The notes below the pieces were generated by a model. It worked only from the letters and a program-made list of their open reading frames with translations. It had not been told where the DNA came from and did no database searches. Below are positions 8,286 through 64,000 of a stretch of DNA of 64,000 nucleotides, one piece after another. Origin of the DNA: Anaerosomatales bacterium (GTDB taxonomy: Bacteria; Actinomycetota; Coriobacteriia; Anaerosomatales; SLCP01); assembly GCA_029210645.1 (NCBI GenBank), contig JARGFT010000011.1:9519-73518 (forward strand). The letters run 5' to 3'. Position numbers and translations under genes: made by a program. Each line of letters begins with the position of its first letter. Position 1 is the stretch's first letter.

Positions 8286-8288
8286 GCG

Positions 8289-9356: not shown

Positions 9357-9426
9357 GCGGAGTGAGTCCTAACGTCAGCGAAGTCTGTTCGATGCAAGCG
9401 TAGCATGATGGGCCGGTCATGCGGGG

Positions 9427-11021: not shown

Positions 11022-11503
11022 CAGCGTTCGTCCTTCCCTCCGAGAAGTATGGTCCACCCACGCTTGACCTCGATGGGCACGGACGAGTAGGTCGCAAGCC
11101 ATACGAGATAGACAGCCACCGCGGCGAGCAGAAGTGCCGCAGTGGGCTGGTTGAGCCAGTGAGGACTGCCGGGCAGCCTGAAGACGTCCATGATAGCAAG
11201 CCCGGTGATCGACATCGTCACGAGCGAGACGTTGGCAGCGTTGTCGCGGCGCTCCAGGTAGCGGACGCTGCGAATCTTCTGGCTTTCGCGCATCCGTGCC
11301 GCGATGCCCCACACCGCCGGGCGCAGGCCGACCGCGAGCAGCGGCAGGAATGTGGCGAAGAGCGGCCAGGACCACCCTTCGGCCAGAAGACCGGCGAAAA
11401 TCGCCGCGAAGACCACGGGAACCGCGAGATGGGCGATGACGACCCCGCGGTCGGGGTCGTAGACATCGCGCCCCGCGTCCCCGGGCAGCACGACCCTACT
11501 CAC
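11021..11503 (-). CDS. Hypothetical membrane protein
   Basis: 160 aa with about 4 TM helices. Overlaps the thyX stop and the DUF1385 start, which suggests translational coupling. Confidence 0.55.
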   Translation of the reverse strand: MSRVVLPGDAGRDVYDPDRGVVIAHLAVPVVFAAIFAGLLAEGWSWPLFATFLPLLAVGLRPAVWGIAARMRESQKIRSVRYLERRDNAANVSLVTMSITGLAIMDVFRLPGSPHWLNQPTAALLLAAVAVYLVWLATYSSVPIEVKRGWTILLGGKDER

Positions 11504-12179: not shown

Positions 12180-12278
12180 GCGGTGCCTCTCGGAACGCGG
12201 GGCCGTCGGGCCCCGATACGGCAAGGGAGGCGAGTCGCCTCGCCTCCCCATTCTAGCAGTGCCGGTGCGGCAGAACGC

Positions 12279-12716: not shown

Positions 12717-12737
12717 GTGCAGTCACCTCCGATAAGC

Positions 12738-12760
12738 GGCCCTGGTTTCCGACCAGGGCC
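12738..12760 (-). terminator. Hairpin between rho and rpmE (rho terminator or rpmE leader stem)
   Basis: Minus strand reads GGCCCTGGT-CGGAA-ACCAGGGCC, a perfect 9-bp stem. It lies 7 nt upstream of the rpmE SD and has no U-tract. Confidence 0.35.
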
Positions 12761-34543: not shown

Positions 34544-34546
34544 CCC

Positions 34547-36454: not shown

Positions 36455-36455
36455 G

Positions 36456-36767
36456 CTACCCCTTCAGCGAGTCGATGGAGGACAGTTCGATGGAGCGGGT
36501 CTGGCGGTAGATCGCGAGCACGAGCGCCAGACCGAGACCGATCTCGGCCGCCGAGACCACCATCGTGAACATGGCGAAGAACTGGCCGGTCATCTCGGTC
36601 GGCGTGACGAAGCGCGAGAGCGCGACCATGTTGAGGTTGACCGCCACCGCCATGAGCTCGAGCGACATCAGCACCATGACCGCGCTGCGACGCGCAACGG
36701 CACCGTAGAGACCGAGCGCGAAGAGCACGGCGGCGAGCCCGAGGAAGGCCGAGGGTCCGATCGTCAC
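36456..36767 (-). CDS. nuoK: NADH-quinone oxidoreductase subunit K
   Basis: 103 aa, 3 TM helices, ...SAAEIGLGLALV... Confidence 0.9.
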   Translation of the reverse strand: MTIGPSAFLGLAAVLFALGLYGAVARRSAVMVLMSLELMAVAVNLNMVALSRFVTPTEMTGQFFAMFTMVVSAAEIGLGLALVLAIYRQTRSIELSSIDSLKG

Positions 36768-37267
36768 CGGTCATCCCCCTCCCTGGACCACCACACGGCG
36801 CCTACGAGCGCCACGAGCAAGACGAGCGACGCGACTTCGAAGGGTAGTGCCCACTGCGTGAAGAGCAGCTCGCCGAGGGCCGCGGTATCGGGCACGACGA
36901 TGGGCATCTCACCGACGCGGTCACCGTACCGGGCGATCGCCACGTACATCACCGTTCCGAAGACCGCGGCCAGGATCCCACCACCGATCGACACCTCGAC
37001 CGGGCGAACGGAGTCCTCACGGCGGCGCAGGGTGAGCATGATCACGAAGAGCATCAGGACCGAGACCGCTCCCGCGTAGATGAGGATCTGCACGACAGCG
37101 AGGAACTCCGCGGAGAGCAGAAGGTAGAGACCGCCCACGGCCACCATGACCTCGAGCAGCCAGAACGCCGCGTGAATGATGTTGCGCGTCGTGAGCATCC
37201 CCACCGCGCCGCCGATCGAGGCGAACGCGAGGATAACGAAGGCCACGCCGTTCACGCTCTCACTCAT
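36764..37267 (-). CDS. nuoJ: NADH-quinone oxidoreductase subunit J
   Basis: Start trimmed to MSESVNGVAFVILAF... About 167 aa, sitting between nuoI and nuoK. Confidence 0.85.
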   Translation of the reverse strand: MSESVNGVAFVILAFASIGGAVGMLTTRNIIHAAFWLLEVMVAVGGLYLLLSAEFLAVVQILIYAGAVSVLMLFVIMLTLRRREDSVRPVEVSIGGGILAAVFGTVMYVAIARYGDRVGEMPIVVPDTAALGELLFTQWALPFEVASLVLLVALVGAVWWSREGDDR

Positions 37268-37763
37268 CGCTGGCCTCCTCTCGGGAAAGCTCGGCCGGGG
37301 AGGAATCGGCCCGGGCAAGTTCGGCCTTCGGTGTGGCTGCGGGACGCGCGCGCTTGACCGGCACCGCGTCCACGTCGGCGAGCAGATCGTAGGTGAGCTC
37401 GGCGGGGTCAAGGCGCGCCAGCTCGTAGTCGTGGCTCATCTCGATCGCATCGAACGGGCAGGCCTCCACGCACAGGCCGCACATCATGCACGCGCCGATC
37501 TCGTAGGAGTAGCGCTCGATGTGCTTGCTCTTGTCCTCGCGGGTCGTGAATTCGAGATCGAGGATATGGTCCGGGCACGCGCGTACGCACGCCATGCACG
37601 CGGTGCACTTCGGCTTGCCCTCCCCGTCGTACTTTGGCACGACCGCCCAGCGGGCACGCTCGGGGATCTCGAGCCTCTCGTAGGGGTACTTCACGGTGAT
37701 CGGCCCGCGCAGCATGTTGCGCATCGTGATACGCATACCGGTGAGGATGCCCTTGCCCCACAT
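37260..37763 (-). CDS. nuoI: NADH-quinone oxidoreductase subunit I (2x[4Fe-4S]) with ~35-aa charged C-terminal tail
   Basis: CTACMACVRACP and CMMCGLCVEACP ferredoxin motifs. Start trimmed to MWGKGILTG..., overlapping the nuoH stop. Confidence 0.92.
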   Translation of the reverse strand: MWGKGILTGMRITMRNMLRGPITVKYPYERLEIPERARWAVVPKYDGEGKPKCTACMACVRACPDHILDLEFTTREDKSKHIERYSYEIGACMMCGLCVEACPFDAIEMSHDYELARLDPAELTYDLLADVDAVPVKRARPAATPKAELARADSSPAELSREEASDE

Positions 37764-38773
37764 CAGGCGACACCCCCGGGAGCCACGAGCTTCACGACAA
37801 CGCCGACGAGCATCAGCCACGCAAGCGAGATCGGGATAAGCCACTTCCAGCCGAGGTTCATGAGGTGGTCGATGCGCACGCGGGGCAGCGTCCCGCGTAT
37901 CCACATGAAGACGAAGATGCCGATGTAGGTCTTCAAGACGAACACCACCGGGGCGATCGGCGCGAGCACCGAATCCGGAACGAACGGCAGCGTCCACCCA
38001 CCGAAGAAGAGCGTGACCGCGAGCGCCGAGATGACAAACGAGTTGCTGAACTCGGAGAGGAAGATCAGGCCGAACTTCATCGACGAGTACTCGGTGGCAA
38101 AGCCGGACACGAGTTCGGACTCGGCCTCGGACATGTCGAAGGGCGTCTGGTTGAGCTCGCACAGCGCCGCGATCATGAAGATGACGAACGAGGGGATGAG
38201 CAGGACCACGAACCACCTCGGAACCACTCCGAGCCAGACGCCGGTCTGGAACGCCACGATCTCGGCAAGGTCCATCGAGCCGACGATCATCACCACCGGC
38301 AGCACCGACAGTAGCAGCGGGACCTCGTACGCGACCTGCTGCGCCGCGGCCCGAAGCGCGCCGATGAGCGCGTACTTGTTCGCCGAGGACCATCCCGCCA
38401 TGATCACGCCGAGCGGGACCACGGAGAGCACCGCGAACGTGTAGAGCAGACCGGTGTCGAGCCGCGTGATGCGCAGCGTCTCAGAAAACGGCAGTGCTGC
38501 GTAGGCCATGAGCGACGGCACGAACACGACCACCGGCGCCAGGACGTACATCCAGCGGTCGACGCCGTTGGGCCTGATGTCCTCCTTGGAGAGCAGCTTC
38601 AGCACGTCGGCGGTGGTCTGGACGATACCCTTGGGGCCGACATGGACCGGACCGAGGCGTAGGTGCAGGTGCCCGAGTACCTTGCGCAGCATGTAGATGA
38701 GCACCACACCGTTGGCCAGCATGAGGCCGATAGCCGCCAGCACGGGCAGTATGGGGGCGAGCACCTGACTCAT
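37763..38773 (-). CDS. nuoH: NADH-quinone oxidoreductase subunit H
   Basis: 336-aa polytopic protein with ...PFDMSEAESELVSGF... Confidence 0.93.
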   Translation of the reverse strand: MSQVLAPILPVLAAIGLMLANGVVLIYMLRKVLGHLHLRLGPVHVGPKGIVQTTADVLKLLSKEDIRPNGVDRWMYVLAPVVVFVPSLMAYAALPFSETLRITRLDTGLLYTFAVLSVVPLGVIMAGWSSANKYALIGALRAAAQQVAYEVPLLLSVLPVVMIVGSMDLAEIVAFQTGVWLGVVPRWFVVLLIPSFVIFMIAALCELNQTPFDMSEAESELVSGFATEYSSMKFGLIFLSEFSNSFVISALAVTLFFGGWTLPFVPDSVLAPIAPVVFVLKTYIGIFVFMWIRGTLPRVRIDHLMNLGWKWLIPISLAWLMLVGVVVKLVAPGGVA

Positions 38774-39975
38774 CGGTCTATCTCCCCGAGGACGATGTCC
38801 ACACTGCCGATCAGCATGATGGCGTCGGCAAGCAGGTGACCGGGGAGTATCTCCTCGAGGACTTGCATCGCGAAGAGCGACGGGGCCCGGTAGTGGAACC
38901 GGTAGGGCGTGTCGGAGCCGTCAGCTACCAGGTGAACGCCGAGCTCGCCGCGGGGCGACTCCACGCACGCGTAGGTCTCTCCCGCCGGCGGGCGGAGCAC
39001 CCTGGGGACCTTTGCCATCACATCTCCTTCGGGCAGCCCCTCGATGCACTGGCGGCACATGCGCGCTGCCTGCCGCATCTCCTCCATGCGCACGAGATAG
39101 CGGTCCCACGCGTCCCCGGTCGCACCGAGCGGCACGTCGAAGTCGAGCTCGGTGTAGGCGGCGTAGGGCTTGTCGCGGCGTACGTCGTACGGGACGCCGC
39201 TTCCCCGCAGGTTGGCGCCGGTCAGACCGAACGCAAGCCCGGTCTCGCGATCGATGACGCCGACCCCGCGGACACGCTTCTGAAAGATCTCGTTGCCGCC
39301 GAGCAGCGCGTGATGCTCGTCGAGGTACGAGTCGATGGTACGCAGAAAGGTCCGGAGCTTCTGCTCGGCATCGGGCGTGATATCGTCGAGAACGCCGCCC
39401 GGCCGCACGTAGTTGAACATCATCCGCTGCCCGGTGACCGACTCGAGCACGTCGAGCAGCGCCTCCCTCTCGCGCATCGCGTAGAGGAACTGCCCCATCG
39501 CACCGCAGTCCAGTCCGAACGTCCCGAACCACACCAGGTGGCTTGCGATGCGGTTGACCTCGCTCATGAGGCTCCGGAGCCACTGGCCCCTGGGCGGCAC
39601 CTCGACCTCGAGCAGCTGCTCGGCCGCGAGCGCGGCGGCAAGCTCACCGTGGATCCCCGAGACGTAGTCGCCGCGGTCCATCAACGTTCCGAGCTGGTGG
39701 TAGCGCCGGTGCTCCCCGAGCTTCTCGATGCCGCGGTGCAGGTAGCCGACGGCCACCTCTACGTTCATGACCTCCTCGCCGTCGAGCTCGGCAACGAGGC
39801 GCAGCACGCCGTGGGTCGACGGGTGCTGGGGGCCGATGTTGACGACGAGGTGCTCGGTAGCAAGCCCGTCGACACCGCTCGGGATACGCTTGATGCCGGC
39901 GGGCGCCCTGCCCGGATCGAAGGTTCCCTCGGCCTGCAGAGCGTGCGTGAGAACGGTGTCGCGCGGGTCGGTCAC
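38770..39975 (-). CDS. nuoD: NADH-quinone oxidoreductase subunit D
   Basis: 401 aa with ...NIGPQHPSTHGVLR... Confidence 0.95.
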   Translation of the reverse strand: MTDPRDTVLTHALQAEGTFDPGRAPAGIKRIPSGVDGLATEHLVVNIGPQHPSTHGVLRLVAELDGEEVMNVEVAVGYLHRGIEKLGEHRRYHQLGTLMDRGDYVSGIHGELAAALAAEQLLEVEVPPRGQWLRSLMSEVNRIASHLVWFGTFGLDCGAMGQFLYAMREREALLDVLESVTGQRMMFNYVRPGGVLDDITPDAEQKLRTFLRTIDSYLDEHHALLGGNEIFQKRVRGVGVIDRETGLAFGLTGANLRGSGVPYDVRRDKPYAAYTELDFDVPLGATGDAWDRYLVRMEEMRQAARMCRQCIEGLPEGDVMAKVPRVLRPPAGETYACVESPRGELGVHLVADGSDTPYRFHYRAPSLFAMQVLEEILPGHLLADAIMLIGSVDIVLGEIDR

Positions 39976-41683: not shown

Positions 41684-41759
41684 TGGAGCCGACGAGGGGA
41701 CTCGAACCCCTGACCTGCGCATTACGAGTGCGCTGCTCTACCAGCTGAGCTACGTCGGC
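41684..41759 (-). tRNA. tRNA-Thr (anticodon CGU), CCA encoded
   Basis: Minus strand reads GCCGACG-TA-GCTC-AGCTGGTA-GAGC-A-GCGCA-CTCGTAA-TGCGC-AGGTC-AGGGG-TTCGAGT-CCCCT-CGTCGGC-T-CCA. This folds by hand as a clean cloverleaf. Confidence 0.93.
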
Positions 41760-49437: not shown

Positions 49438-51849
49438 TCAGGAGGTCTTCTTGGTGTTCCGCTTGGCGGGTGAGCGGCCCTTCGCCGAAGCCTTGCGCGT
49501 GCCCCGGCCCTTTGCGGCGCTCCCCTTCTTGGGGTCCTTGGCTCGTGCGGAGCACTCGGGATCGATGCATATCTTCCACGGCCCCTTCTTGGTGTGGACG
49601 ACGACCTTCGGCGCTCCGCACGGCTCGCAGACCTCGTCGGTCGCCTCGATCTCACCCGACTGGGGAAGCGGGTAGGAGACAGGATGTTCCTTCGCGTCGT
49701 AGTTGACGCAGCGAACGTAGCGGCTGCCGACCGGCGAGTAGCGCACGCGCAACTCTGCCCCATCGACGGGACAGCGACCGACGAGTATCTCGGGACCCTT
49801 CTTGGTGGGGCACTGAGTGTTGAGGCACATGTTCCGCGCGGGCCGCTTGAACTGCATGACCTTGACCTGATGGCTGCCGCACACCTCGCACATCTCCTCG
49901 ACCGCCGCATAGCGGGCGTTCTTGGGCAGCGGGTAGGTGACGGTGCACTCGGGGTAACCCTGGCAGCCGACGAAGTACGAGCGGGTCTTCGGCGAGTACT
50001 TGATGAGGAGGTCGTGGCCGGACTGCGGGCACGTGCCGACCTTGGCGTCCTCGTCGGCGGCTGCCTTGAGAAGCTCACCGACCTCGGGCACGTGCGCAAG
50101 CAGCGCGGTCATCACATCGGCAAGCAGCGTGCGCGAGTGACCGACGACCTGCTTGCGCTGCGCCTTGGCGCGTGCGATCTCATCCATCTCGCGATCGAGC
50201 TCGGCGGTCATCTCGGGAGTCGTGATGCGCTCCGCATGCGTGAGGAGCGCGTTGATGACGCTGATCCCTTTGCAGGTGGGCTGGATGGGGTCGCCCGTGA
50301 CGTACTTGCGATCGTAGAGCGTCTGGATGATGTCGTGGCGGGTGGCTTTGGTGCCCAGACCGAGCTTCTCCATCTCCTGGATCATCTTGCCCTGGCTGTA
50401 GCGCGCGGGCGGCTGCGTCTGCTTGGCGTCCATCTCGGCACCGAGGAAGTCGACTGAGACACCCTCGTCGAGCAAGGGCAGGTACTCCTCTTTCTTCATG
50501 CCGTACGGGTAGACGGCGCGAAAGCCCGCCGAGACCACCACGTCACCGCGCGCCACGAAGCGCTCGCCTGCGACGTCGATACCGATCTTGGTGCTCTCCA
50601 GCACCGCGGCGTCTGAAAGCGTGGCCATGAAGCGCCGCGCGATGAGGTTGTAGATCTTGAACTCCTCGGGCTTGAGCTTCTCGGGATTGGCCGCGCCGGT
50701 GGGGTGGATCGGAGGATGGTCGGTGGTCTCCTTGGCGCCGCGCGTCGGCTTGAGCGCCCCCTTCTTCAGAAGCGCCGACGCGTACTGGTGGTACGCCGGC
50801 ACCTTGTCGAGCTCGCGCAGGATCGTGTGCAGCTCGAGGCTGGGGGGGTAGACGGTGTTGTCGACGCGCGGATAGGACACCAGGCCGCTCATGTAGAGCG
50901 ACTCTGCGATGCGCATCGTGCGGGACGGGGAGATGCCCTCATTGGCGGCCGCGGCCTGCAGGGCCGTCGTGTTGAAAGGCGTCGGCGGCTTGACGGTGCG
51001 CCTGGTCTTGGTGACCTCGGCCACCGTGCCCTCACTGGCGCCCGACACGGCCGCCATGGCCCGCTCGGCCTCAGCCACGTCCTTGAAGCGCTCCGTAGCG
51101 TGCGAGGCGCCGAACTCGCTCTCGGCGTCGCCGTGCGGCGCAAACCGCGCGCGCACCGTCCAGTAGTCCTCGGGCACGAAGGCGTCGCGCTCGGCCTCGC
51201 GGTCGACGATGAGCTTGAGCGTGGGCGTCTGCACGCGGCCGGCCGAGAGCATGTCACCCCACGCGCGCTTCGAAGCGGCGTTCGACGCGAGTGTCAGGTA
51301 GCGCGTGAGCACCGCACCCCACACCAGGTCGATGTCCTGGCGGGTGGCCCCTGCGTCGGCGAGTTCCTCGGAGAGCTCGCCGGGCTCGGCAAACGCGCGC
51401 TCGATCTCGTCTTTGGTGATGGCGGAGAATCGCACGCGCGAGACGGGCACGTCCGCGTTGACTCGCCGCACGACATCGCGCGCGTCCGCGCCGATGAGCT
51501 CGCCCTCGCGGTCGAAGTCGGTGGCGATCATGACCTGCTCGGCCTTCTTGGCGAGGTTCTCGATCGACCGGATGATGCCCTTCTCGGCACCCTCCTTGAG
51601 CACGGGAGCGCCCACGAGCGTGGGCAGCGAGTCGAGCTTCCACTTCTTCAGGTCGACCCCGTCGAGTTCCTCGGGGAAGTCGACCTTCATGATGTGGCCC
51701 TTCAGCCCGATGCTGACCCAGTCCTCGCCGTCGCGGCGGAACCGGTAGACCGGGGTGGAGTAGACCTTGTCGGTGGTTGGCTTGCCCACGGCGAGGATCT
51801 CGGCGATCCTGCGCGCGGCGATGTTCTTCTCTGAGACGACCAGTCGCAT
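49438..51849 (-). CDS. topA: Type IA DNA topoisomerase with 4 C-terminal zinc ribbons and Lys-rich tail
   Basis: TOPRIM ...ATDFDREGELIG... and active-site Tyr context ...GLVSYPRVDNTVY... Four Cys4-type ribbons. I prefer ATG 51849 (MRLVVSEKNIAARRIAEIL) over the track's TTG start at 51879. Confidence 0.9.
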   Translation of the reverse strand: MRLVVSEKNIAARRIAEILAVGKPTTDKVYSTPVYRFRRDGEDWVSIGLKGHIMKVDFPEELDGVDLKKWKLDSLPTLVGAPVLKEGAEKGIIRSIENLAKKAEQVMIATDFDREGELIGADARDVVRRVNADVPVSRVRFSAITKDEIERAFAEPGELSEELADAGATRQDIDLVWGAVLTRYLTLASNAASKRAWGDMLSAGRVQTPTLKLIVDREAERDAFVPEDYWTVRARFAPHGDAESEFGASHATERFKDVAEAERAMAAVSGASEGTVAEVTKTRRTVKPPTPFNTTALQAAAANEGISPSRTMRIAESLYMSGLVSYPRVDNTVYPPSLELHTILRELDKVPAYHQYASALLKKGALKPTRGAKETTDHPPIHPTGAANPEKLKPEEFKIYNLIARRFMATLSDAAVLESTKIGIDVAGERFVARGDVVVSAGFRAVYPYGMKKEEYLPLLDEGVSVDFLGAEMDAKQTQPPARYSQGKMIQEMEKLGLGTKATRHDIIQTLYDRKYVTGDPIQPTCKGISVINALLTHAERITTPEMTAELDREMDEIARAKAQRKQVVGHSRTLLADVMTALLAHVPEVGELLKAAADEDAKVGTCPQSGHDLLIKYSPKTRSYFVGCQGYPECTVTYPLPKNARYAAVEEMCEVCGSHQVKVMQFKRPARNMCLNTQCPTKKGPEILVGRCPVDGAELRVRYSPVGSRYVRCVNYDAKEHPVSYPLPQSGEIEATDEVCEPCGAPKVVVHTKKGPWKICIDPECSARAKDPKKGSAAKGRGTRKASAKGRSPAKRNTKKTS

Positions 51850-51926
51850 ACGGGTCGGGTCCTGTTCTTCAGGCGGCAAGTCTTTGCGAGTATATACTGC
51901 GCGTCAACCCACGCCCTACCGAACCC

Positions 51927-57226: not shown

Positions 57227-58579
57227 CTAGACGATCCTCAACTTGATGCGCATCTCCTCGGCCCGAGCCTGGATGCGGTCGATGTCGAGCAGGCTCCAAC
57301 GGCCCGAATCGTAGAGCACCTGACCTGCGACCATGGTGAACATCACGTTCTCCTGATTCGCGGTATGCACGAGCGTGCTGTACGGGTAAAGCGTCGGGAT
57401 CTGGTGGCTGTGCGAGATGTCGACGGCGATGATGTCCGCCTGCTTGCCCGGTTCCAGCGAACCCACCCGATCGTCGAGGCCAAGGGCTCGTGCGGCGTCG
57501 AGGGTTCCCATCTTGATGAACTGGCGGGCGATCAAGTGTGACTCGTAGCCAGAGAGTGCGCGCTGGATGAGCAGGCCTATCCGCATCTCATCGAACATGT
57601 CCAGCGTGTTGTTCGATGCGGGCGAGTCGGTCCCGATCCCCACCTCTATCCCCCGCTCGAGGAAGCTGCCGAGCGGGGCGACACCCATGCCGAGCTTGGC
57701 GTTGCAGCGCGGGCAGTACGCCACGGCCACCTCGCGACCGGCGAGGATCTCCATGTCGGCGTCGTCGACCTGCGTGCAGTGCACCGCGAGCATCCGTGGG
57801 ACCTCGAAGAGCCCCCACTGGTCGATGTAGCGCACGGGGCTCACGCCGGTGGGCAGCCACCCGAGATCGACACCGGTGAATGTGTCCCGGTAATCCACCG
57901 CAAGACGGGAGCTGCCGTACTTCACGAAGTCGTACTCGTCCTTCGAGCCTGCCACGTGCATCGCGACCGGCAGGTCCTCGGCGATCGCCTTCTCGGCGAC
58001 CTGACGGTAGACCTCGGGGTGACAGCTGTACGCCGCGTGCGGCGCGATCCCAATGGTCAGACGCGACGGGTCCCCGTACTCGCGCCATGCCGCGATGTCC
58101 TCGGCTGCGCGGGCCATCAGCCCCGCTACCTGTCGCTTTTCCATCGTGGAGACTTCCCGGTACGCGACCGCGCGAAGGCCGGACCCCGCCGCCGCGCGCG
58201 CCGATGCGCCCGTCTCGGTGATGTCGGCGACCGTCGTGATGCCGGACTGCAGGGCCTCGGCGGCGCCGAGCCGGGCGGCGTCCTCCCAGTCCTCGTCATC
58301 GAGGTACTGTTCCTTCTCGAGCAGCTGGAGTTTCCACTGCGAGTAGGGCAGGTCGTCGACGAGTCCGCGCATCGCCGAGTACTCGAGGTGGGTGTGCAGG
58401 TCGACGAAGCCGGGCATGAGCACGGCAAGGCCGAAGTCGCGGATCTCCTCGTCGGGATGGGCCGCTTTGAGCTTCTCGAGCTCCCCGATCTCCACGATGT
58501 GGTCGCCGTGCACGAGCACGGCGCCATCGACGATGTGCGGCGCGGCTATCGGAAGGACGTACCGGGCGGCGAGTAGCAT
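57227..58579 (-). CDS. Amidohydrolase (COG0402-type: MTA/SAH, guanine or aminofutalosine deaminase-like)
   Basis: Start trimmed to MLLAARYVLPIA... (ATG 58579). Metal motifs ...GFVDLHTHLEYS..., ...VAMHVAGS... and ...IGTDSPASN... Confidence 0.85.
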   Translation of the reverse strand: MLLAARYVLPIAAPHIVDGAVLVHGDHIVEIGELEKLKAAHPDEEIRDFGLAVLMPGFVDLHTHLEYSAMRGLVDDLPYSQWKLQLLEKEQYLDDEDWEDAARLGAAEALQSGITTVADITETGASARAAAGSGLRAVAYREVSTMEKRQVAGLMARAAEDIAAWREYGDPSRLTIGIAPHAAYSCHPEVYRQVAEKAIAEDLPVAMHVAGSKDEYDFVKYGSSRLAVDYRDTFTGVDLGWLPTGVSPVRYIDQWGLFEVPRMLAVHCTQVDDADMEILAGREVAVAYCPRCNAKLGMGVAPLGSFLERGIEVGIGTDSPASNNTLDMFDEMRIGLLIQRALSGYESHLIARQFIKMGTLDAARALGLDDRVGSLEPGKQADIIAVDISHSHQIPTLYPYSTLVHTANQENVMFTMVAGQVLYDSGRWSLLDIDRIQARAEEMRIKLRIV

Positions 58580-58632
58580 GCACGTCTCCTCGGAGTCGGT
58601 GTGTCGCCATTCTAGCAGCACGGAGACGCTCT

Positions 58633-58746
58633 GGGAGCGACGGGGAGGGTTGCCCGGCGAGTTCTGCAGCGCGGAGGGAGGCGCTTCGCGCCGAGGGCCC
58701 CTCCGCGCGAAGCTGTCTGAGTCGGGGAACCCTCCCCGTCGCTCCC
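58633..58746. repeat. 114-nt nested inverted repeat (long GC-rich hairpin) between menG/ubiE and the amidohydrolase gene
   Basis: Outer arms are a perfect 19 bp (58633..58651 GGGAGCGACGGGGAGGGTT pairing with 58728..58746). Inner arms are a perfect 10 bp (58669..58678 with 58699..58708). The apical hairpin GGCGC-TTC-GCGCC lies at 58680..58692. Confidence 0.8.
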
Positions 58747-58752
58747 CCGCCC

Positions 58753-59499
58753 CTACTTCACGGCGGTGTGGATGGCGACGATGCCGCCGGTGCGGTCCTC
58801 CCAGGAGATCGCGGTGAAGCCCGCGGCCCGCAACTCGGCCGCAAGCTGGGCCTGCGGCGGGAAGGAGCGGATCGAGTCGTTGAGGTAGACGAACGAGGCG
58901 CGGTCGCGCGTGAGCAGTCCGCCGATCGCCGGGATGACGACACGCAGGTAGAGGTGGTAGAACCAACGCCACGGCGCAAAGGAAGGACGCGAGAACTCGA
59001 GGATGACGTAGCGCCCGCCCGGTTTGAGGACCCGCAGGACCTCGGAGAAGTTGGCTGCGCGGTCGGGCAGGTTGCGCACCCCGAAGGCCACTGTCGCTAC
59101 GTCGAACGAGGAGTCCGGGAAGGGCAGGTCCTGGGCGTCTGCGACGGAGAAGGACACCTTGGTGCGGCCCGAGAAGCCACGCCCCTTCTGCTCGGCGACC
59201 GCAAGCATCTCGGGTACGAAGTCGGTGCCGACGACCTCGGCCGGCCTGCCCTGCTTCGCGAGGGCAAGCGAGAGGTCACCGGTGCCGGCGCACAGGTCGA
59301 GCACCCGGCTCGTGGTCTTGAGGTTTGCCGCCTGCACCGCAGCGCGCCGCCAGGACCGGTCGATGCCGAAGCTCGAGAGGATGTTGAACAGGTCGTAGCG
59401 GTCCGCGATCAGCGAGAAGATGCCATGCACGCGCTCGGCGGTCGGCTCGCCCGGCGCTGGAGCGCCGGGCGCATCTCGTTCGTCGTTCACGTCGGGCAT
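58753..59499 (-). CDS. menG: Demethylmenaquinone/ubiquinone C-methyltransferase (UbiE/MenG family)
   Basis: ...YDLFNILSSFGIDRSWRR..., SAM motif ...VLDLCAGTGDL... and ...LKPGGRYVILEFS... The ATG shares 1 nt with the radical-SAM gene stop. Confidence 0.88.
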   Translation of the reverse strand: MPDVNDERDAPGAPAPGEPTAERVHGIFSLIADRYDLFNILSSFGIDRSWRRAAVQAANLKTTSRVLDLCAGTGDLSLALAKQGRPAEVVGTDFVPEMLAVAEQKGRGFSGRTKVSFSVADAQDLPFPDSSFDVATVAFGVRNLPDRAANFSEVLRVLKPGGRYVILEFSRPSFAPWRWFYHLYLRVVIPAIGGLLTRDRASFVYLNDSIRSFPPQAQLAAELRAAGFTAISWEDRTGGIVAIHTAVK

Positions 59500-61289
59500 C
59501 AGGCCTCCGGGGGTTCGCACACGGGCTGTGGACGGGGCGCGGGGCGCCTCCGGGACCCGAACAGGTTAGCTAGGTTCTCCCGCAGCCACAACATGAAGAC
59601 GTGGCGAACGTTACGGAGGCCCACCGAACGAGGCCAGTTCAGCTCGGACTTCTCGCAGACCGTCGACTCGCTCAGGCGATCGATCTCCTCCTTGAGAGCA
59701 TCGAGTTCGCGCCCGCGGACAGCAGGGTCCCGCTCGCCCATCACCTCATCGATGCGCGCCATGGCCTCACGAGCCTGAAGAATGCGGTCCTCGGTGCACG
59801 CCACGACGTCCGGCTCGATGGTGCCCAGGCGCCCCTTGAGGCGGTTCAGGCGCAGGCCCACCTCGTACATCGTGTCGACCATCTCGTCTTTGGGAAGCGA
59901 GTGGCTCTCGTAGTTCATGATGTACTTCCAGGAGGGCTGCACGAGCAGCTGGCGGTGCTCCTCGAGCGTGTCGGCCAGCCGCGTGTAGCCGTACTTCTCG
60001 GGATTGTCGTAGACCATCGAGCCGGGATCGAGGAACGGCGCCATGGGCGACGAGAAGCACAGCAGCCGCTTATCGTTGCCCACCTTCTCGTAGAGCGACT
60101 CGATGTAGGCCGGCGTCTCGAGCACGGAAGCGGCGGTCTGGGTCGGGATGCCGGTCATCATGTAGAGGTCGAAGCGCGAACAGCCGTTGCGCAGCGCCGC
60201 GGCGATCGACTCCTCTACCTGCGCGGTGGTGTAGTGGTGCTTGCCGAAGGCCGCGCGCACATCGTCGTCGTGCGTCTCGATGCTGATCTCGACCGAGTAG
60301 TCGTCGAGGTGCTCGTTGAGGAACCAGTAGAACTCCTCGGCGGGCGGCTTGAAGAACTCGAACCCGATCGGATTGCGCAGGTTGATCTTAGAGAGCCCGC
60401 GTATGAATGCGGCGGTGTAGTCGCGCCCGGCCTGCAGGAAGTCGTTGAGCACGAAGACCGGCCCCGGGATGTACTTCTGGAAGTGTTCGATATCGCGGAC
60501 CAGCAGCTCCGGATCGCGGAACGCCACGCGGTCGCGGCCGTAGTGGTTTCTGAACGCGTATGCCGAGCCGCCGCACGTCACGCAGTTGTGCGTGCAACCC
60601 CGGCAGGTGAGCGAGGCACACACCGGGTACTGCAGCCAGTCCTTGAAGGGCACAGAGCCCATCATGTCCCGGTAGCGGATGACCGACTTCATGCTGTAGG
60701 AGTAGTCGAGCGAGATGTCGTTCATGTCGCCCGGGACCCACTCGAACGGCGTCGAGTGCACAGACCCGTCGCGCGTGGTGTAGGTCAGGTTCGGGATGTC
60801 ATCGACCCGTCCCTTCCCCTTGAGCGCGTAGAGCAGGCGCGTCATCGGCTCCTCGGTCGAATCGCCGCGCACCACGTAGTCCACGCTCGGGTAGCTCGCG
60901 AGCTCCTCGTGGAAGAAGCTGGCCGAGAGGCCGCCGAAGATCACCGGCGTGTCCGGATGGTACTTCTTGCAGATCTTCGAGATCTCGACCGAGCCGTGGG
61001 CGTGTGGCAGCCAGTGCAGGTCGATGCCGAATGCGACCGGGTTCATCTCCCGGATCGCCCGCTCGACGTCGAAACCGGGCTTGTTGAGCATGAGGACGGC
61101 CAGGTTCACGATGCGGACCTTCAGCCCGTGGCGCTCCATGTACTCGGCCATGGTCGTGAAACCGAGGGGGTACATCTCGAAGACAGGGGTCGAGGGCACC
61201 ATGTCGGACACCGGTCCGAACATGATGGAGCGCTCTCTGAAGTCATACACGCTGGGAGCGTGGAGCAACACGAGGTCGACTCGCGACAT
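59499..61289 (-). CDS. B12-binding-domain / radical SAM protein (~596 aa)
   Basis: Start trimmed to MSRVDLVLLHAPSVYDF... An N-terminal Rossmann-like cobalamin-binding domain is followed by the radical SAM cluster motif CTHNCVTC (CxxxCxxC). Confidence 0.82.
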   Translation of the reverse strand: MSRVDLVLLHAPSVYDFRERSIMFGPVSDMVPSTPVFEMYPLGFTTMAEYMERHGLKVRIVNLAVLMLNKPGFDVERAIREMNPVAFGIDLHWLPHAHGSVEISKICKKYHPDTPVIFGGLSASFFHEELASYPSVDYVVRGDSTEEPMTRLLYALKGKGRVDDIPNLTYTTRDGSVHSTPFEWVPGDMNDISLDYSYSMKSVIRYRDMMGSVPFKDWLQYPVCASLTCRGCTHNCVTCGGSAYAFRNHYGRDRVAFRDPELLVRDIEHFQKYIPGPVFVLNDFLQAGRDYTAAFIRGLSKINLRNPIGFEFFKPPAEEFYWFLNEHLDDYSVEISIETHDDDVRAAFGKHHYTTAQVEESIAAALRNGCSRFDLYMMTGIPTQTAASVLETPAYIESLYEKVGNDKRLLCFSSPMAPFLDPGSMVYDNPEKYGYTRLADTLEEHRQLLVQPSWKYIMNYESHSLPKDEMVDTMYEVGLRLNRLKGRLGTIEPDVVACTEDRILQAREAMARIDEVMGERDPAVRGRELDALKEEIDRLSESTVCEKSELNWPRSVGLRNVRHVFMLWLRENLANLFGSRRRPAPRPQPVCEPPEA

Positions 61290-61409: not shown

Positions 61410-62618
61410 CTACTGGGAGACGGATCCCCTCACGTGGCACTCGGCGCAGTACGTCGGGTTGTGGCAGTCGAAGCACTGCTGTGCTCCGCCCTCGCGCACC
61501 GGCTCCATGTGCTGCGGGATCCACGCGCGGTTCGGATCGGCGCCCTCGTGGTGGCAGTCGTTGCAGAAGTCCGATCCCGGCGCACTCGCATGGCAGTTCT
61601 CGCAGACCTCGGGACGGGTCCGTCCGTCCTCGCCATGCTCCTTGGCAAAGCCCTCGGGGTGCGGCATCTGCACGCCGTGGCAACCGTCGCAGAACACGCG
61701 CTCGTTGTGGCAGGTCTGGCAGTAGCCGACCGCCGCCACCGGCGGGAGATGCTGGAGCTGCTCGTACATCGGCGCGTCGGTGTGCGGCTCTTCGAGATCG
61801 GCGCGGGCCGCTGTATAGGCGGCGAAGTCCTCGTTGGCCATCGCCGCGTGGCCACCGCTCTCGCCGTACGGCTCGTAGAAGCCCGGTTCGCTGTGGTTCG
61901 CCGGCATGAGCTCGAAGTCAGGCGTGTGGCATGCCTCGCACTCGGCGGGGGCCACGATCCCGCTCACGGACTCGCCGCTCGTGGTGTGGCACCGGTAGCA
62001 GGCCGCCATGAGCATGAAGTCCTCGTGCGGCTGGTTGGGCTCGCCGGTGCCCGGGTCGGTGAGCGTGAGCTCGAAGTCCTCGACGTGCGCGGTGCGGTTG
62101 TGGCACACCGTGCAGTGGATCTCGGCCTCATCGTGGACGGCGTGGTCGATGACGATCCCCGGGCTGGGGGTCACGGTGCGGTTCTCGAGCCAGTGGCACT
62201 GGTTGCACTGCTCCGGACCCATGTACTTCTGGCTGAGCGCGAGATGAGAGCCGTGATTGAGGGGCAGTTCGAACTTGTTGGTGGCCGTGAGATACAGCTC
62301 GCCGAGGGCCTCGGCCTTGTGCAGCAGGAAGGTGACCGGATCGGCGTTCACCGGCATGTGGCACGCCATGCACGACACTTCGGAGTGCGGCGAGCGGTCG
62401 TAGGCGATGATCGTGTCGTCCTGCACCTTGTGACACACGTTGGCGCAGAACCAGTACGTCGAGGTAACGCCGAGTGCGACGACAACGAATGCCGCCAGAC
62501 CGAGGACGACCGCACCTGTCCAGATGAGATAGCGGGGACGCCGCATCGGGTCGGCGTAACCGGAGAAGAACGTCTTCAGCTTCGGCATGCGCTCCTGTCC
62601 TGTCTCACGAGGCTCCAT
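61410..62618 (-). CDS. Membrane-anchored dodecahaem c-type cytochrome with NapC/NirT (NrfH/CymA)-like N-terminal module
   Basis: 402 aa. TM anchor ...YLIWTGAVVLGLAAFVVVALGV, then FCANVCH...SPHSEVSCMACHMP (NapC/NirT pattern). I counted 12 CxxCH motifs in total. Confidence 0.85.
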   Translation of the reverse strand: MEPRETGQERMPKLKTFFSGYADPMRRPRYLIWTGAVVLGLAAFVVVALGVTSTYWFCANVCHKVQDDTIIAYDRSPHSEVSCMACHMPVNADPVTFLLHKAEALGELYLTATNKFELPLNHGSHLALSQKYMGPEQCNQCHWLENRTVTPSPGIVIDHAVHDEAEIHCTVCHNRTAHVEDFELTLTDPGTGEPNQPHEDFMLMAACYRCHTTSGESVSGIVAPAECEACHTPDFELMPANHSEPGFYEPYGESGGHAAMANEDFAAYTAARADLEEPHTDAPMYEQLQHLPPVAAVGYCQTCHNERVFCDGCHGVQMPHPEGFAKEHGEDGRTRPEVCENCHASAPGSDFCNDCHHEGADPNRAWIPQHMEPVREGGAQQCFDCHNPTYCAECHVRGSVSQ

Positions 62619-62657: not shown

Positions 62658-64000
62658 CTACGTCCCACTCGAAACCGTGAAGAAGACCGTCTTTGGCGGG
62701 AACTCGACGTTGCCGGACCAGTCCTCGGACCAGAACTCGAGGTTGTAGGTCTCCATCCCACTCACTGGCGGCGGCACTTCGATTACCGTTCCGTACCGGA
62801 GAGCGCCACCGTTCAGGCGGTAGTACGTGTACCTGGATCCGAGATAACCGTCGTCGGTCGGACCCAGAACCACAGTCGCCGTAGCCTCATACGAGCTACG
62901 AACGTTCGACGTCGTGACCGGCGCGAGTGTGTCCGGGACGACCGTGAACGTCGCCGTCCTCGACGGCGATTCGTAGACACCCGATAGGCTCTCTGACCAG
63001 AACTCGAGCGAGTGTACGCCTGGCTCACTGACAAAGACTCCGGGTCCGGCCATGAGCCGGCCCCCATCCAAACGGCGATACGTCCGGCCATCCGCGGCTT
63101 CGCCATCCACGGTGATGGCAAACGAGATGTATGCGGGGCCGACGTAGGATACCTGCACATCGGCGACGGTGACCGGGGGGGTCGCCTCTACAGATGAGAA
63201 CCTGCTCGCCAGGGCGGTGGTAGCCGCCGGCACTACATGGCAGTTGAGACAGAAGCCGGGATCCAACAGAGCTCCGACGCCGGCCGTATGGCAACTGTCA
63301 CAGTAATCCCGTGCGAGCGGGTTTGATGCGTAGGGGTCATGACTCACGAAGGCATCACCGTGATACGCGACATGACAGCCGCTCTGTTGGCAGCCCTTGT
63401 CCGGCTCATACGTGTCCCAGGTAGCCGGGTGACACGTCAGACACTCCGAACCGTGAGCGGTCACCAGGTCGTCCGCGTGACAGCCTATCCCGCAGTCGAC
63501 CGTATCGACGAGCCAGGCAGTTCGTGGCCGCCCAAGGTGACTATCCGTGAAGAAGTCCATGGTGTCCGGCACAAGCGTAAGCGTATGATCCACCTCGGCG
63601 TGCGGATCGGTGCCGTGACAAGACCCGCACTCTGCCGTGCGGGGCTCACCCGGAAGGTGGCACGCCTCACAGCCCGTGACGGTGCCGGCGTGGATGTCGA
63701 TGGGGTCGCCTGCGTCGTGACACCCGAGGCACTCATCGAACCCTTCAGGCAGCTCGTGCAGGAGGGAGTGACAGTTCAGGCAGAGCGCATGCCCTGCCGT
63801 AACGGTTACCTCGTGCGAAGACTCGACCGGTCGCACGAGAAAGCGCTCGGCACTGCTCTCGTGAGGAAACACGTGGAATTCCGGGTTGCCGGTGGACTCC
63901 GCGCTGACCGGGGACGAGTACACGCTCACGGCGAATGTCTGTTCCGCGCCGAGCATAGGGTTGGTGCCCCTCTCGGAGGGTCCGATATCGCGGGCGTCCT
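62658..64000 (-). CDS. Multihaem c-type cytochrome with two C-terminal Ig-like/beta-sandwich repeats; 5' end probably outside window
   Basis: 7 CxxCH motifs plus CGIGCH (CX3CH) and CQQSGCH (CX4CH). The C-terminal ~170 aa holds two similar modules (...YRRLDGG...HSLEFWSES... and ...YYRLNGG...YNLEFWSEDWSGNVE...). The frame stays open upstream of Met 63956 to the window edge, and no signal peptide is visible. Confidence 0.8.
   Translation of the reverse strand, partial: DARDIGPSERGTNPMLGAEQTFAVSVYSSPVSAESTGNPEFHVFPHESSAERFLVRPVESSHEVTVTAGHALCLNCHSLLHELPEGFDECLGCHDAGDPIDIHAGTVTGCEACHLPGEPRTAECGSCHGTDPHAEVDHTLTLVPDTMDFFTDSHLGRPRTAWLVDTVDCGIGCHADDLVTAHGSECLTCHPATWDTYEPDKGCQQSGCHVAYHGDAFVSHDPYASNPLARDYCDSCHTAGVGALLDPGFCLNCHVVPAATTALASRFSSVEATPPVTVADVQVSYVGPAYISFAITVDGEAADGRTYRRLDGGRLMAGPGVFVSEPGVHSLEFWSESLSGVYESPSRTATFTVVPDTLAPVTTSNVRSSYEATATVVLGPTDDGYLGSRYTYYRLNGGALRYGTVIEVPPPVSGMETYNLEFWSEDWSGNVEFPPKTVFFTVSSGT

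What the first reader, a model, noticed from the sequence alone, without database searches (positions are those of the whole stretch)
62658..64000. Cytochrome with non-canonical CX3CH and CX4CH sites fused to two Ig-like repeats, in a lower-GC gene
Besides 7 CxxCH motifs, the ORF has CGIGCH and CQQSGCH. CX4CH sites are known from cytochrome c3-type proteins, so these may be genuine haem sites, giving 9 in total. The C-terminal third is two copies of a ~75-aa beta-sandwich-like module (Y-[RY]-R-L-[DN]-G-G ... LEFWSE ... TFTV), a pattern I associate with surface-exposed bacterial Ig-like or OmpL47-type domains. By eye the gene is noticeably less GC-rich than its neighbours, which is consistent with horizontal acquisition. 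Its N-terminus lies outside the window.
Basis: partly seen in the sequence, partly recalled or inferred. Interest (0 to 1): 0.6.

Follow-up and report, generated by a model that had tools for sequence, protein, structure and literature searches.

The report
Secreted 15-haem cytochrome with Ig-like tail
The end of the window encodes the back half of an exported 15-haem electron-transfer protein from a Gram-positive subsurface bacterium; it most likely helps pass respiratory electrons out of the cell, and it is an uncharacterised member of a known kind of protein, not a new kind.

Summary
On the minus strand, 62658-64000 encodes the last 446 residues of a 753-aa protein (MDF1543031.1, Anaerosomatales MAG). 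This part has 7 CxxCH, CGIGCH and CQQSGCH, followed by two homologous beta-sandwich repeats.

The full protein has a cleavable signal peptide and 15 haem motifs. All 30 cysteines of the mature protein lie in those motifs.

- **CX4CH site:** it is an invariant family signature (GCQQGGCH), and about 21% of sites in the wider superfamily are CX4CH.
- **CX3CH site:** it is a one-residue insertion in a column that is CxxCH in all other homologues.

Both are therefore very probably real haem sites, and neither motif type is new.

The repeats belong to the OmpL47-type domain family: 38 of 40 family repeats match NF047446, though the target's own copies are sub-threshold. They are modelled with pLDDT above 90 as tandem Ig/FN3-like domains.

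GC3 is lower (0.745 vs 0.855±0.042). Orthologues at the same syntenic locus show the same dip. They are only about 51% identical, while flanking proteins are 82-94% identical. This points to a fast-evolving resident surface gene, not a recent acquisition.

The gene sits in a conserved cluster with a NapC/NirT-type 12-haem protein, a membrane-anchored 15-haem cytochrome and an NHL propeller. Extracellular electron transfer is the most likely role, by inference only.

The parts
62658..64000 (-). 3' part of the cytochrome gene: codons 308-753 of a 753-codon ORF, plus the stop at 62658-62660. The 5' 921 nt lie beyond the window end.
   Evidence: ORF and translation. It is 100% identical to residues 308-753 of P0221 = MDF1543031.1. 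The near-identical contig L001 supplies the rest of the gene.
63237..63782 (-). Haem-binding region encoded in the window, with 9 motifs. CxxCH sites: 63768-63782, 63717-63731, 63657-63671, 63615-63629, 63429-63443, 63288-63302, 63237-63251. The two variant sites are listed separately.
   Evidence: Motif positions. All 18 Cys are in motifs, and 12 further His lie in this region as candidate distal ligands.
63237..63629 (-). Conserved hexahaem core module (protein residues 431-561), shared by the whole family.
   Evidence: Six motifs are invariant, plus His445, 461, 489, 520 and 527, in alignments of 28-62 homologues. A profile of this module finds 915 cluster representatives at E<=1e-3.
63477..63494 (-). 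CGIGCH: CX3CH variant haem-binding site (residues 476-481).
   Evidence: The column is C-x-x-C-H in all 55 other homologues. Only the three closest sequences (P0001-P0003) carry the extra residue. Both Cys and the His are invariant.
63372..63392 (-). CQQSGCH: CX4CH haem-binding site (residues 510-516), the family signature GCQQGGCHxxYH.
   Evidence: C510, C515, H516 and H520 are invariant in 51 sequences. 133 of 140 superfamily representatives have at least one CX4CH, and CxQGGCH is the commonest form.
62934..63179 (-). Ig-like (OmpL47-type) beta-sandwich repeat 1 (residues 581-662).
   Evidence: 41% identical to repeat 2. Family repeat HMM E=9e-30. AF2 pLDDT 89-97, all-beta. It has no direct NCBIfam hit of its own.
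62661..62933 (-). Ig-like (OmpL47-type) beta-sandwich repeat 2 (residues 663-753). The protein ends directly after it.
   Evidence: NF047446 E=2e-4, 21.5-21.7 bits, below the cut-off of 40. 38 of 40 family repeats match NF047446. AF2 pLDDT 94-98. Foldseek gives tandem FN3/Ig domains of extracellular proteins.
61410..62588 (-). Next gene downstream, 69 nt away: membrane-anchored NapC/NirT-family cytochrome of 392 aa, with 11 CxxCH plus CANVCH (CX3CH at 62430-62447).
   Evidence: PF03264 E=2e-12, 47.6 bits, above the cut-off of 24.1. Motifs and the N-terminal hydrophobic segment. No terminator-like site between the two genes. CANVCH is conserved in L002.
58753..61289 (-). Further downstream, same strand: B12-binding radical SAM protein (59499-61289) and UbiE-type methyltransferase (58753-59499). 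Both are syntenic flanking genes.
   Evidence: Pfam families of the called genes in L001. They are 92-94% identical in L002.

Best explanation
The region encodes the C-terminal 59% of a Sec-exported, soluble multihaem c-type cytochrome with 15 haem sites, from an Anaerosomatales (Coriobacteriia, Gram-positive) genome.

Architecture. The protein consists of a signal peptide cleaved at ALA|YP, about 550 residues of c3/c7-type haem modules, and two tandem OmpL47-type Ig-like domains. The haem modules end in a hexahaem core that defines a large uncharacterised family. Both variant motifs bind haem. CX4CH is the ancestral, invariant state of that site. CX3CH is a recent one-residue insertion in an otherwise canonical site.

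Mechanism (inferred). The protein is the outermost, unanchored member of a conserved electron-export cluster. Electrons would leave the membrane through the adjacent membrane-anchored NapC/NirT-type 12-haem protein. They may also pass through the upstream membrane-anchored 15-haem cytochrome. They would then reach this protein, which carries them through or beyond the cell wall to Fe(III) minerals or another external acceptor. The Ig-like tandem would serve as a spacer or attachment module to the wall, to the membrane-anchored NHL propeller, or to the mineral.

Composition. The low GC3 and about 50% divergence from orthologues reflect the fast evolution typical of extracellular cytochromes.

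What is shown and what is inferred. Shown: sequence architecture, conservation, synteny and composition. Inferred: haem occupancy, location at the surface, direction and partners of electron flow, and the role of the Ig domains.

Confidence by part: about 0.9 that it is an exported multihaem cytochrome with 15 genuine sites; about 0.55 that its role is extracellular electron transfer; about 0.3 for the specific role proposed for the Ig-like tandem.
For: Full length and export:
- P0221 and P0001 are 753 aa; the only strongly hydrophobic segment is at the N-terminus, and there is no LPXTG motif.
- The cleavage context AxA|YP is conserved in all full-length homologues, whereas Cys20 is not.

Haem sites:
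- 13 CxxCH + 1 CX3CH + 1 CX4CH. Of 31 Cys, 30 are in motifs and 1 is in the signal peptide. There are 20 non-motif His for 15 haems.
- PF14522, PF14537 and PF09699 all score above their gathering thresholds on the full protein.
- Column-level conservation of both variant sites.
- Across 140 superfamily representatives: 3663 CxxCH, 969 CX4CH and 50 CX3CH.
- Both neighbouring cytochromes also carry one conserved CX3CH each, with every Cys in a motif apart from one in the membrane anchor of the 479-aa protein.
- CX3CH and CX4CH are listed as known haem motifs (PMC11492766).

Ig domains.

Cluster:
- MHC479 (TM anchor, 15 sites), NHL368 (TM anchor), target, NapC392 (TM anchor, 12 sites).
- The same order is found in L002, L003 and L005.
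- No terminator-like site between the target and NapC.

Organism:
- Anaerosomatales are Gram-positive and carry 17-18 multihaem cytochromes. One isolate is an obligate Fe(III) reducer (PMC9686372).
- A Coriobacteria L31 leader lies in the window.

Fast evolution:
- The target is 51% identical to its L002 orthologue, while flanking proteins are 82-94% identical and NapC is 88%. Divergence is even across all regions.
- Extracellular MHCs are reported as the least conserved class (PMC11492766) and as fast-mutating (PMC12977616).
Against: - No experiment bears on this protein or on any family member.
- Homologues in more distant Actinomycetota MAGs are mostly stand-alone genes, without NapC or NHL neighbours within 8 kb. 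The cluster link therefore holds only for the closest clade.
- No orthologue was named among the hits from the two cultured Anaerosomatales, so the link to their Fe(III) reduction is indirect.
- The cultured strains had no detectable respiratory quinones (PMC9686372), which leaves the electron donor to the NapC-type protein unclear.
- AF2 gave low confidence for the haem part (pLDDT <50 in the full-length run; 68 for the core alone). The core model had no Foldseek match in the PDB, so haem packing could not be checked.
- No anchor is evident, so retention at the cell surface is assumed.
Confidence: 0.6

Rival explanations
1. The gene, or the three-gene cytochrome block, was recently acquired horizontally, and the lower GC3 is the un-ameliorated signature of the donor.
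For: - GC3 is 0.745 against 0.855±0.042, the lowest among window genes of at least 250 aa. The upstream MHC479 (0.792) and NHL (0.797) are also lowish.
- The conserved core is shared with Desulfuromonadales, Desulfobulbaceae and Deferrisomatales, so inter-phylum transfer occurred at some point.
- The L002 orthologue is 51% identical while flanks are 82-94% identical. Allele replacement by recombination could produce this.
- High exchange rates are reported for Geobacter cytochromes (PMC12977616).
Against: - The gene has the same position and the same neighbours in L002, L003 and L005.
- Orthologues have the same GC3 dip, 0.750 and 0.752. The dip is therefore a stable property of the gene.
- Total GC is at z=-1.3 and codon-usage likelihood at z=-1.7.
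- No integrase, transposase, tRNA or repeats are annotated at the borders.
- The full-length architecture is found only in Actinomycetota.
- The surrounding DNA is chromosomal core: topA, mdh, holB, nuo.
Confidence: 0.12
2. The CX3CH and/or CX4CH motifs do not bind haem (for example a disulfide or a metal site), so the window part has 7 haems and the protein has 13.
For: No direct evidence of haem occupancy exists. The target's CX3CH is confined to three close sequences. CX3CH is rare in the superfamily, at 50 of 4682 motifs.
Against: - Cys-Cys-His are invariant at both sites.
- The CX3CH column is a canonical CxxCH in all other homologues.
- CX4CH makes up 21% of the superfamily's sites.
- There are no spare cysteines anywhere in the mature protein.
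- Conserved CX3CH sites occur in both neighbouring cytochromes and at a different site in P0018 and P0046.
- Both spacings are known haem motifs (PMC11492766). From my own knowledge, tetrahaem c3 uses CX4CH, and general maturation systems accept CX3CH and CX4CH.
Confidence: 0.06
3. The protein works inside the wall zone as an electron shuttle or reductase for soluble acceptors, or as a multihaem enzyme. It is not a surface-exposed terminal reductase for minerals.
For: - There is no anchor or mineral-binding motif (no [ST]-x-[ST]-P-[ST]).
- The profile has a weak PDB match to an HAO-like octahaem protein (6H5L, 5e-7) and to NrfA-type proteins.
- Many homologues stand alone in their genomes.
Against: - There is no CXXCK or other recognisable catalytic-haem motif, and there are enough conserved His for bis-His ligation.
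- The PDB matches are generic motif-level hits at low scores.
- The tandem Ig-like domains are typical of surface and extracellular proteins.
- 15 haems in one chain is more than a shuttle needs.
Confidence: 0.18
4. The protein is the subunit or precursor of a cytochrome filament (nanowire). The N-terminal OmcE-like part would polymerise, and the Ig-like tail would act as a removable or decorating domain.
For: - Residues 141-230 match OmcE (7TFS) at E=0.006, and the family profile matches it at 2e-5.
- Parvivirga forms thin appendages only on ferrihydrite (PMC9686372).
- The superfamily includes giant wire-like proteins with up to 39 module matches.
Against: The OmcE similarity is weak, short and motif-driven, and it lies outside the window. 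There is no evidence of inter-subunit ligation. No protease gene was seen in the cluster.
Confidence: 0.08

Closest known systems
Class III (c3/c7-type) multihaem cytochromes, e.g. tetrahaem cytochrome c3 and the c7-module dodecahaem GSU1996 (PDB 3OV0)
   Same: - Dense haem packing, about 37 residues per haem.
- Enough conserved His for bis-His ligation.
- CX4CH used alongside CxxCH.
- Pfam Cytochrome_C7, Cytochrom_c3_2 and Paired_CXXCH_1 score above threshold on the full protein.
- The core profile aligns to GSU1996 modules.
   Different: - Much larger: 15 haems in one chain.
- PDB similarity is only motif-level (best 5e-7 to 9e-6).
- The core model has no Foldseek match.
- It carries two C-terminal Ig-like domains.
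- It comes from a Gram-positive organism, not a periplasm.
Cell-surface terminal reductases of Gram-positive metal reducers: OcwA (Thermincola potens) and OmhA (Carboxydothermus ferrireducens)
   Same: These are secreted, unanchored or weakly bound multihaem cytochromes of monoderm bacteria. They are proposed or shown to deliver electrons to Fe(III) minerals and electrodes (PMC6703420 title and abstract; PMC7829351). This is the same proposed working principle.
   Different: No detectable sequence relationship was found: the OcwA structure does not appear among PDB hits at E<=1. They have 9 and 11 haems and no OmpL47-type domains. They have experimental support, and this protein has none.
OmpL47-type beta-barrel domain proteins (NCBIfam NF047446; Leptospira surface protein OmpL47)
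   Same: The repeat family matches the domain model in 38 of 40 copies, best E=3e-15. The repeats occur in tandem in secreted proteins. A beta-sandwich is predicted with pLDDT above 90.
   Different: The target's own repeats are divergent: 21.5 bits against a cut-off of 40 for repeat 2, and no hit for repeat 1. Here the domain is fused to a cytochrome. The function of the domain is not known.
MtrC/OmcA-type outer-surface decahaem cytochromes and porin-cytochrome conduits
   Same: These are extracellular multihaem proteins that combine haem domains with beta-sheet domains. They are fed from a NapC/NirT-family quinol dehydrogenase (CymA); this comes from my own knowledge of the Shewanella pathway.
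   Different: No porin or MtrA/B-type partner is present in the called genes, and the host is monoderm. The beta domains are C-terminal tandem Ig-like modules, not interleaved split barrels. PF22113 is recorded only for some distant family members.

Membership tests
c-type multihaem cytochrome, class III (c3/c7-like) | Several covalent haem-binding motifs (CXnCH) with all motif cysteines paired | tested here: met
   15 motifs in the full protein and 9 in the window part. 30 of the 30 mature-protein Cys are in motifs.
c-type multihaem cytochrome, class III (c3/c7-like) | Curated family HMMs above the gathering score | tested here: met
   Full protein: PF14522 43.7 bits (cut-off 24.8), PF14537 33.4 (25) and PF09699 27.3 (20.6). 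The window fragment alone is sub-threshold: 16.8 and 11.7 bits.
c-type multihaem cytochrome, class III (c3/c7-like) | Export to the extracytoplasmic side, which is required for haem attachment | tested here: met
   The N-terminal signal peptide is the only strongly hydrophobic segment. The AxA|YP cleavage context is conserved across homologues. No dedicated predictor was available.
c-type multihaem cytochrome, class III (c3/c7-like) | Haem actually bound, with bis-His ligation | not testable with these tools
   Only indirect evidence: 20 non-motif His, five of them invariant or nearly so in the hexahaem core.
OmpL47-type beta-barrel domain (NF047446) | Score at or above the curated cut-off (40 bits) | tested here: not met
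   Repeat 2 scores 21.5-21.7 bits, E=2e-4. Repeat 1 has no hit.
OmpL47-type beta-barrel domain (NF047446) | Homology through the family: repeats of homologues match the model | tested here: met
   38 of 40 sampled family repeats match at E<=0.01, best 3e-15. The target's repeats match the family repeat HMM at 9e-30 and 7e-31.
OmpL47-type beta-barrel domain (NF047446) | All-beta sandwich fold | tested here: met
   AF2 pLDDT 89-98 over residues 581-750, all strands. Foldseek gives tandem FN3/Ig-like domains at E~1e-6.
NapC/NirT(CymA)-fed extracellular electron-transfer pathway | Membrane-anchored NapC/NirT-family cytochrome encoded next to the extracellular cytochrome | tested here: met
   PF03264 47.6 bits (cut-off 24.1). 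It has an N-terminal TM segment, lies 69 nt downstream, and has no terminator-like site between.
NapC/NirT(CymA)-fed extracellular electron-transfer pathway | Electron flow from the quinol pool to an external acceptor through these proteins | not testable with these tools
   Inference from gene order and from the physiology of the order (PMC9686372). Quinones were not detected in the isolates.
Porin-cytochrome conduit (Mtr/Pcc) | Outer-membrane beta-barrel porin partner | tested here: not met
   None among the called genes within ±10 kb. Anaerosomatales have a Gram-positive wall (PMC9686372).
Cytochrome nanowire subunits (OmcE/OmcS/OmcZ) | Significant sequence or fold similarity to a solved filament subunit | tested here: inconclusive
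   OmcE (7TFS) matches at E=0.006 for the single sequence and 2e-5 for the profile, in the N-terminal part only. OmcS and OmcZ are not among the hits. The haem-part model is too poor to compare folds.
Recently acquired genomic island | Absent from the syntenic locus of relatives | tested here: not met
   Present at the same locus in L002, L003 and L005.
Recently acquired genomic island | Atypical composition relative to the host genome | tested here: inconclusive
   GC3 z=-2.6 to -3.8, but total GC z=-1.3 and codon usage z=-1.7. Orthologues share the dip. Only 64 kb of the genome served as the reference.
Recently acquired genomic island | Mobility genes, tRNA or repeats at the borders | tested here: not met
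   None in the called genes of L001. The only tRNA in the window is at 41684-41759.

The most novel reading that the evidence does not exclude
The hexahaem CX4CH core plus tandem OmpL47-type domains could be a portable surface-display cassette for electron export, shared between monoderm Actinomycetota and diderm Desulfobacterota. In Anaerosomatales this protein would be the terminal mineral reductase of an undescribed Gram-positive pathway: NapC-type 12-haem protein, then an anchored 15-haem protein, then this secreted 15-haem protein, scaffolded by membrane-anchored NHL propellers. Its roughly 50% divergence at a locus with about 90%-identical flanks would then reflect diversifying selection or allele exchange at the cell surface.
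Probability: 0.25. Interest if true: 0.55.

Novelty: new member of a known kind. Interest (0 to 1): 0.3.

Why it matters
Extracellular electron transfer in Gram-positive bacteria, and in Actinomycetota in particular, is known from very few proteins. Anaerosomatales (formerly OPB41) are widespread in the subsurface, and one isolate lives only by Fe(III) reduction.

A conserved cluster containing a secreted 15-haem cytochrome with an attachment-like tail is a concrete candidate for the outer end of that pathway.

The family signature (GCQQGGCH followed by two OmpL47-type domains) gives a simple handle for finding relatives. At least 335 cluster representatives match the core at E<=1e-10.

The case is also a caution for annotation. 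Counting only CxxCH under-counts haems in this superfamily by about a fifth. A local GC3 dip in a fast-evolving surface gene should not be read as horizontal transfer.

Tried and rejected
- **Look-up of the neighbour.** Using the 402-aa ORF found nothing, because the real start gives 392 aa. The target's homologue P0001 gave the contig instead.
- **Pfam on single repeats.** No hits. Pfam on 40 family repeats gave only scattered weak hits to Flg_new_2, Big_1 and Big_13, so no Pfam family is assigned.
- **First GC3 gene set.** It was contaminated by antisense ORFs, so it was redone with a frame filter.
- **Lipoprotein idea (LLAC lipobox at Cys20).** Rejected. The Cys is not conserved, whereas AxA|YP is.
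- **Hematite-binding motif.** Absent.
- **Sortase signal.** Absent.
- **Terminator between the target and NapC.** None found.
- **L002 assembly.** It has several split genes, probably from frameshift errors, so its gene lengths were not interpreted.
Full report
**What is in the window.**
The minus strand from 62658 to the window end is one open frame; its stop codon is at 62658-62660. It encodes 446 residues with seven CxxCH motifs, one CGIGCH (63477-63494) and one CQQSGCH (63372-63392). Two related segments of about 82 and 91 residues follow.

All 18 cysteines of this part lie in the nine motifs. Composition-preserving shuffles give about 0.03 motifs of each type, and none reached seven CxxCH. 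The two C-terminal segments are 41% identical over 83 residues (E=2e-15).

**The whole protein.**
A protein search found a 753-aa protein that is 100% identical over the window part (P0001). Its cluster mate P0221 (MDF1543031.1, 'hypothetical protein', Anaerosomatales MAG) matches the window residue for residue. The contig carrying P0001 (L001) differs from the window at 4 of 11,343 bases, so it serves as an extension of the window.

The full protein has:
- an N-terminal signal peptide, which is its only strongly hydrophobic segment, and no LPXTG motif;
- the cleavage context AxA|YP, conserved in all full-length homologues, whereas Cys20 is not conserved, so it is not a lipoprotein;
- 13 CxxCH plus the CX3CH and the CX4CH, i.e. 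15 motifs that use all 30 cysteines of the mature chain;
- 20 further histidines available as distal ligands.

On the full sequence, Pfam Cytochrome_C7, Cytochrom_c3_2 and Paired_CXXCH_1 all exceed their gathering scores.

**Are the variant motifs haem sites?**
In an alignment of 58 homologues, the CX4CH site is the family signature GCQQGGCHxxYH. C510, C515, H516 and H520 are invariant.

The CX3CH column is an ordinary CxxCH in every homologue except the three closest sequences, which carry one extra residue. The flanking Cys, Cys and His are invariant. Other members have CX3CH or CX4CH at different sites, for example CTEGCH in P0018 and CTEAGCH in P0004.

A profile of the hexahaem core found 915 cluster representatives at E<=1e-3 among 1.84 billion, and 335 at E<=1e-10. 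In the best 140 of these there are 3663 CxxCH, 969 CX4CH and 50 CX3CH. 133 of the 140 have at least one CX4CH.

The two neighbouring cytochromes each have one CX3CH: CANVCH in the NapC-type protein and CTSTCH in the 479-aa protein. Both are conserved in orthologues, and in both proteins every cysteine is in a motif, apart from one in the 479-aa protein's membrane anchor.

Both spacings are listed as known haem-binding motifs (PMC11492766). From my own knowledge, CX4CH is classical in tetrahaem c3. I therefore regard both sites as real haem sites with high probability, and as unremarkable in kind.

**The repeats.**
AlphaFold2 with 51 homologues models residues 581-750 as two all-beta domains with pLDDT 89-98. 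The haem part was not modelled usefully. Foldseek against the PDB returns tandem FN3/Ig-like domains of extracellular proteins, adhesins and S-layer proteins at E~1e-6.

The target's second repeat hits NCBIfam NF047446 (OmpL47-type beta-barrel domain) only weakly: 21.5 bits against a cut-off of 40. The first repeat has no hit. However, 38 of 40 repeats sampled across the family hit that model, best E=3e-15.

The same module occurs one to six times in non-cytochrome secreted proteins, including ones with recorded S8 and M10 peptidase domains, and in Paenibacillus, Massilia and Duganella genomes.

Most family members carry a further domain of about 100 residues after the second repeat. The target's clade ends directly after the second repeat.

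**Composition and the transfer idea.**
With a frame-filtered set of 53 window genes, GC3 is 0.855±0.042 and the target is at 0.745. That is z=-2.6, and z=-3.8 among genes of at least 250 aa. Total GC is at z=-1.3. Four-fold-site GC3 is 0.734 against 0.838±0.045. A codon-usage likelihood places the gene fourth lowest of 55 (z=-1.7).

So the dip is real but moderate. Several results argue against recent acquisition:
- The gene lies in the same slot (Wzy-like, Rex, TPR, NHL, 15-haem cytochrome, NHL, target, NapC-type, radical SAM, UbiE, amidohydrolase) in L002, L003 and L005.
- The orthologues show the same dip, 0.750 and 0.752.
- No mobility genes or tRNA flank the gene.
- The window is chromosomal core: topoisomerase I, malate dehydrogenase, Pol III delta', complex I.

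What stands out instead is divergence. Between L001 and L002 the flanking proteins are 82-94% identical and the NapC-type protein is 88% identical, but the target is only 51% identical. The divergence is spread evenly over all regions.

This fits reports that extracellular multihaem cytochromes are the least conserved class (PMC11492766) and evolve unusually fast (PMC12977616). Allele exchange among relatives cannot be excluded.

**Context and likely function.**
The cluster encodes three cytochromes with 42 haem motifs in total:
- a 479-aa protein with an N-terminal membrane anchor (15 motifs);
- the target (15 motifs; soluble after signal cleavage);
- a 392-aa NapC/NirT-family protein with a membrane anchor (12 motifs; PF03264 at 47.6 bits).

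It also encodes a membrane-anchored NHL beta-propeller. No terminator-like site separates the target from the NapC-type gene.

NHL-repeat proteins recur next to multihaem cytochromes in the literature on electron-exporting bacteria. Anaerosomatales are Gram-positive and encode 17-18 multihaem cytochromes. They include an obligate Fe(III) reducer that attaches to ferrihydrite (PMC9686372). A Coriobacteria-specific L31 leader in the window agrees with this taxonomy.

The best-supported reading is that this is the outer, unanchored member of an extracellular electron-transfer chain, fed from the membrane by the NapC-type protein. The Ig-like tandem would act as a spacer or attachment module. It would work like OcwA of Thermincola or OmhA of Carboxydothermus without being related to them: neither the sequence nor the profile finds OcwA in the PDB at E<=1.

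Caveats:
- More distant Actinomycetota homologues are mostly stand-alone genes.
- No orthologue from the cultured strains was seen.
- The isolates had no detectable quinones.
- Nothing about haem occupancy, location or partners is shown.

**Relation to known families.**
By sequence the protein is a class III (c3/c7-type) multihaem cytochrome. The nearest solved structures match only at motif level: 6H5L at 5e-7, GSU1996 at 9e-6, a reaction-centre cytochrome at 1e-5 and OmcE at 2e-5. A model of the core with mean pLDDT 68.5 found nothing in the PDB.

Full-length relatives (43-55% identical) occur only in Actinomycetota MAGs. The core plus repeats occurs in Desulfuromonadales, Desulfobulbaceae and Deferrisomatales MAGs. 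The superfamily includes proteins of up to 5264 residues with about 150 motifs.

**Verdict.**
The reading of the haem sites and of the repeats is supported. The horizontal-acquisition inference is not supported. This is an uncharacterised but ordinary-in-kind extracellular multihaem cytochrome, built from known domain types. Interest is modest and rests mainly on its candidacy as the outer component of electron export in a little-studied Gram-positive order.

Noticed in passing
window 62430-62447 (-); L001 7142-8581: Both neighbouring cytochromes also carry exactly one CX3CH site: CANVCH as the first site of the NapC/NirT-type protein, and CTSTCH as the 14th of 15 sites in the 479-aa anchored cytochrome. 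Both sites are conserved in orthologues (L002, L003). A CX3CH first haem site in a NapC/NirT-family protein seems unusual to me.
   Followed up: partly
L001 vs L002 (target 10001-12262 vs 8001-9815): The target is about 51% identical to its syntenic orthologue, while flanking proteins are 82-94% identical. Against L003 the flanks are about 70% identical and the target 53%. Divergence is thus decoupled from that of the neighbours, which suggests either very fast evolution or allele replacement.
   Followed up: partly
P0004, P0013, P0014, P0035, P0050 C-termini (alignment A1): Most family members have a third conserved C-terminal domain of about 100 aa after the two Ig-like repeats (GTGTIRLVWG...W..VDD...PGxxxRLxY). 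The target and its two closest relatives lack it. Its nature was not determined.
   Followed up: no
P0081-P0220; L045 1194-16220: The hexahaem core module is repeated up to 39 times in giant predicted cytochromes, up to 5264 aa with about 150 haem motifs. These include an open frame of about 5000 codons in a Coriobacteriia MAG.
   Followed up: no
window 57227-61289 (-): A B12-binding radical SAM gene, a UbiE-type methyltransferase gene and an amidohydrolase gene lie directly downstream of the NapC-type gene and are highly conserved (92-94%). The cultured Anaerosomatales were reported to have no detectable respiratory quinones, so the donor for a quinol-dehydrogenase-type cytochrome is an open point.
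   Followed up: no
P0001/P0221 residues 141-230 (outside the window): The N-terminal haem region shows weak similarity to the filament-forming cytochrome OmcE (7TFS; E=0.006 for the single sequence, 2e-5 for the profile). This N-terminal part is the best conserved region among full-length homologues (57-63%).
   Followed up: partly
window 12727-12759 (-): Rfam match to the L31-Coriobacteria ribosomal-protein leader (34.6 bits, gathering score 33), consistent with a Coriobacteriia origin of the window.
   Followed up: no
window 31691-39975 (-); 49438-51879 (-): The rest of the window is chromosomal core. It carries complex I subunits (NuoD, H, L, M, N types), DNA polymerase III delta', malate dehydrogenase, topoisomerase I, and TatA/TatC and HypA/HypB-type genes nearer the cluster.
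   Followed up: partly
L002 (JGI 3300076002 contig Ga0645779_05506): Several genes of this syntenic locus are split into two or three ORFs (Rex, NHL, the 15-haem cytochrome, the NapC-type protein and the target's N-terminus). This looks like assembly frameshifts, not biology. The locus also holds an extra fragment resembling the target's N-terminal haem region (2547-3698).
   Followed up: no
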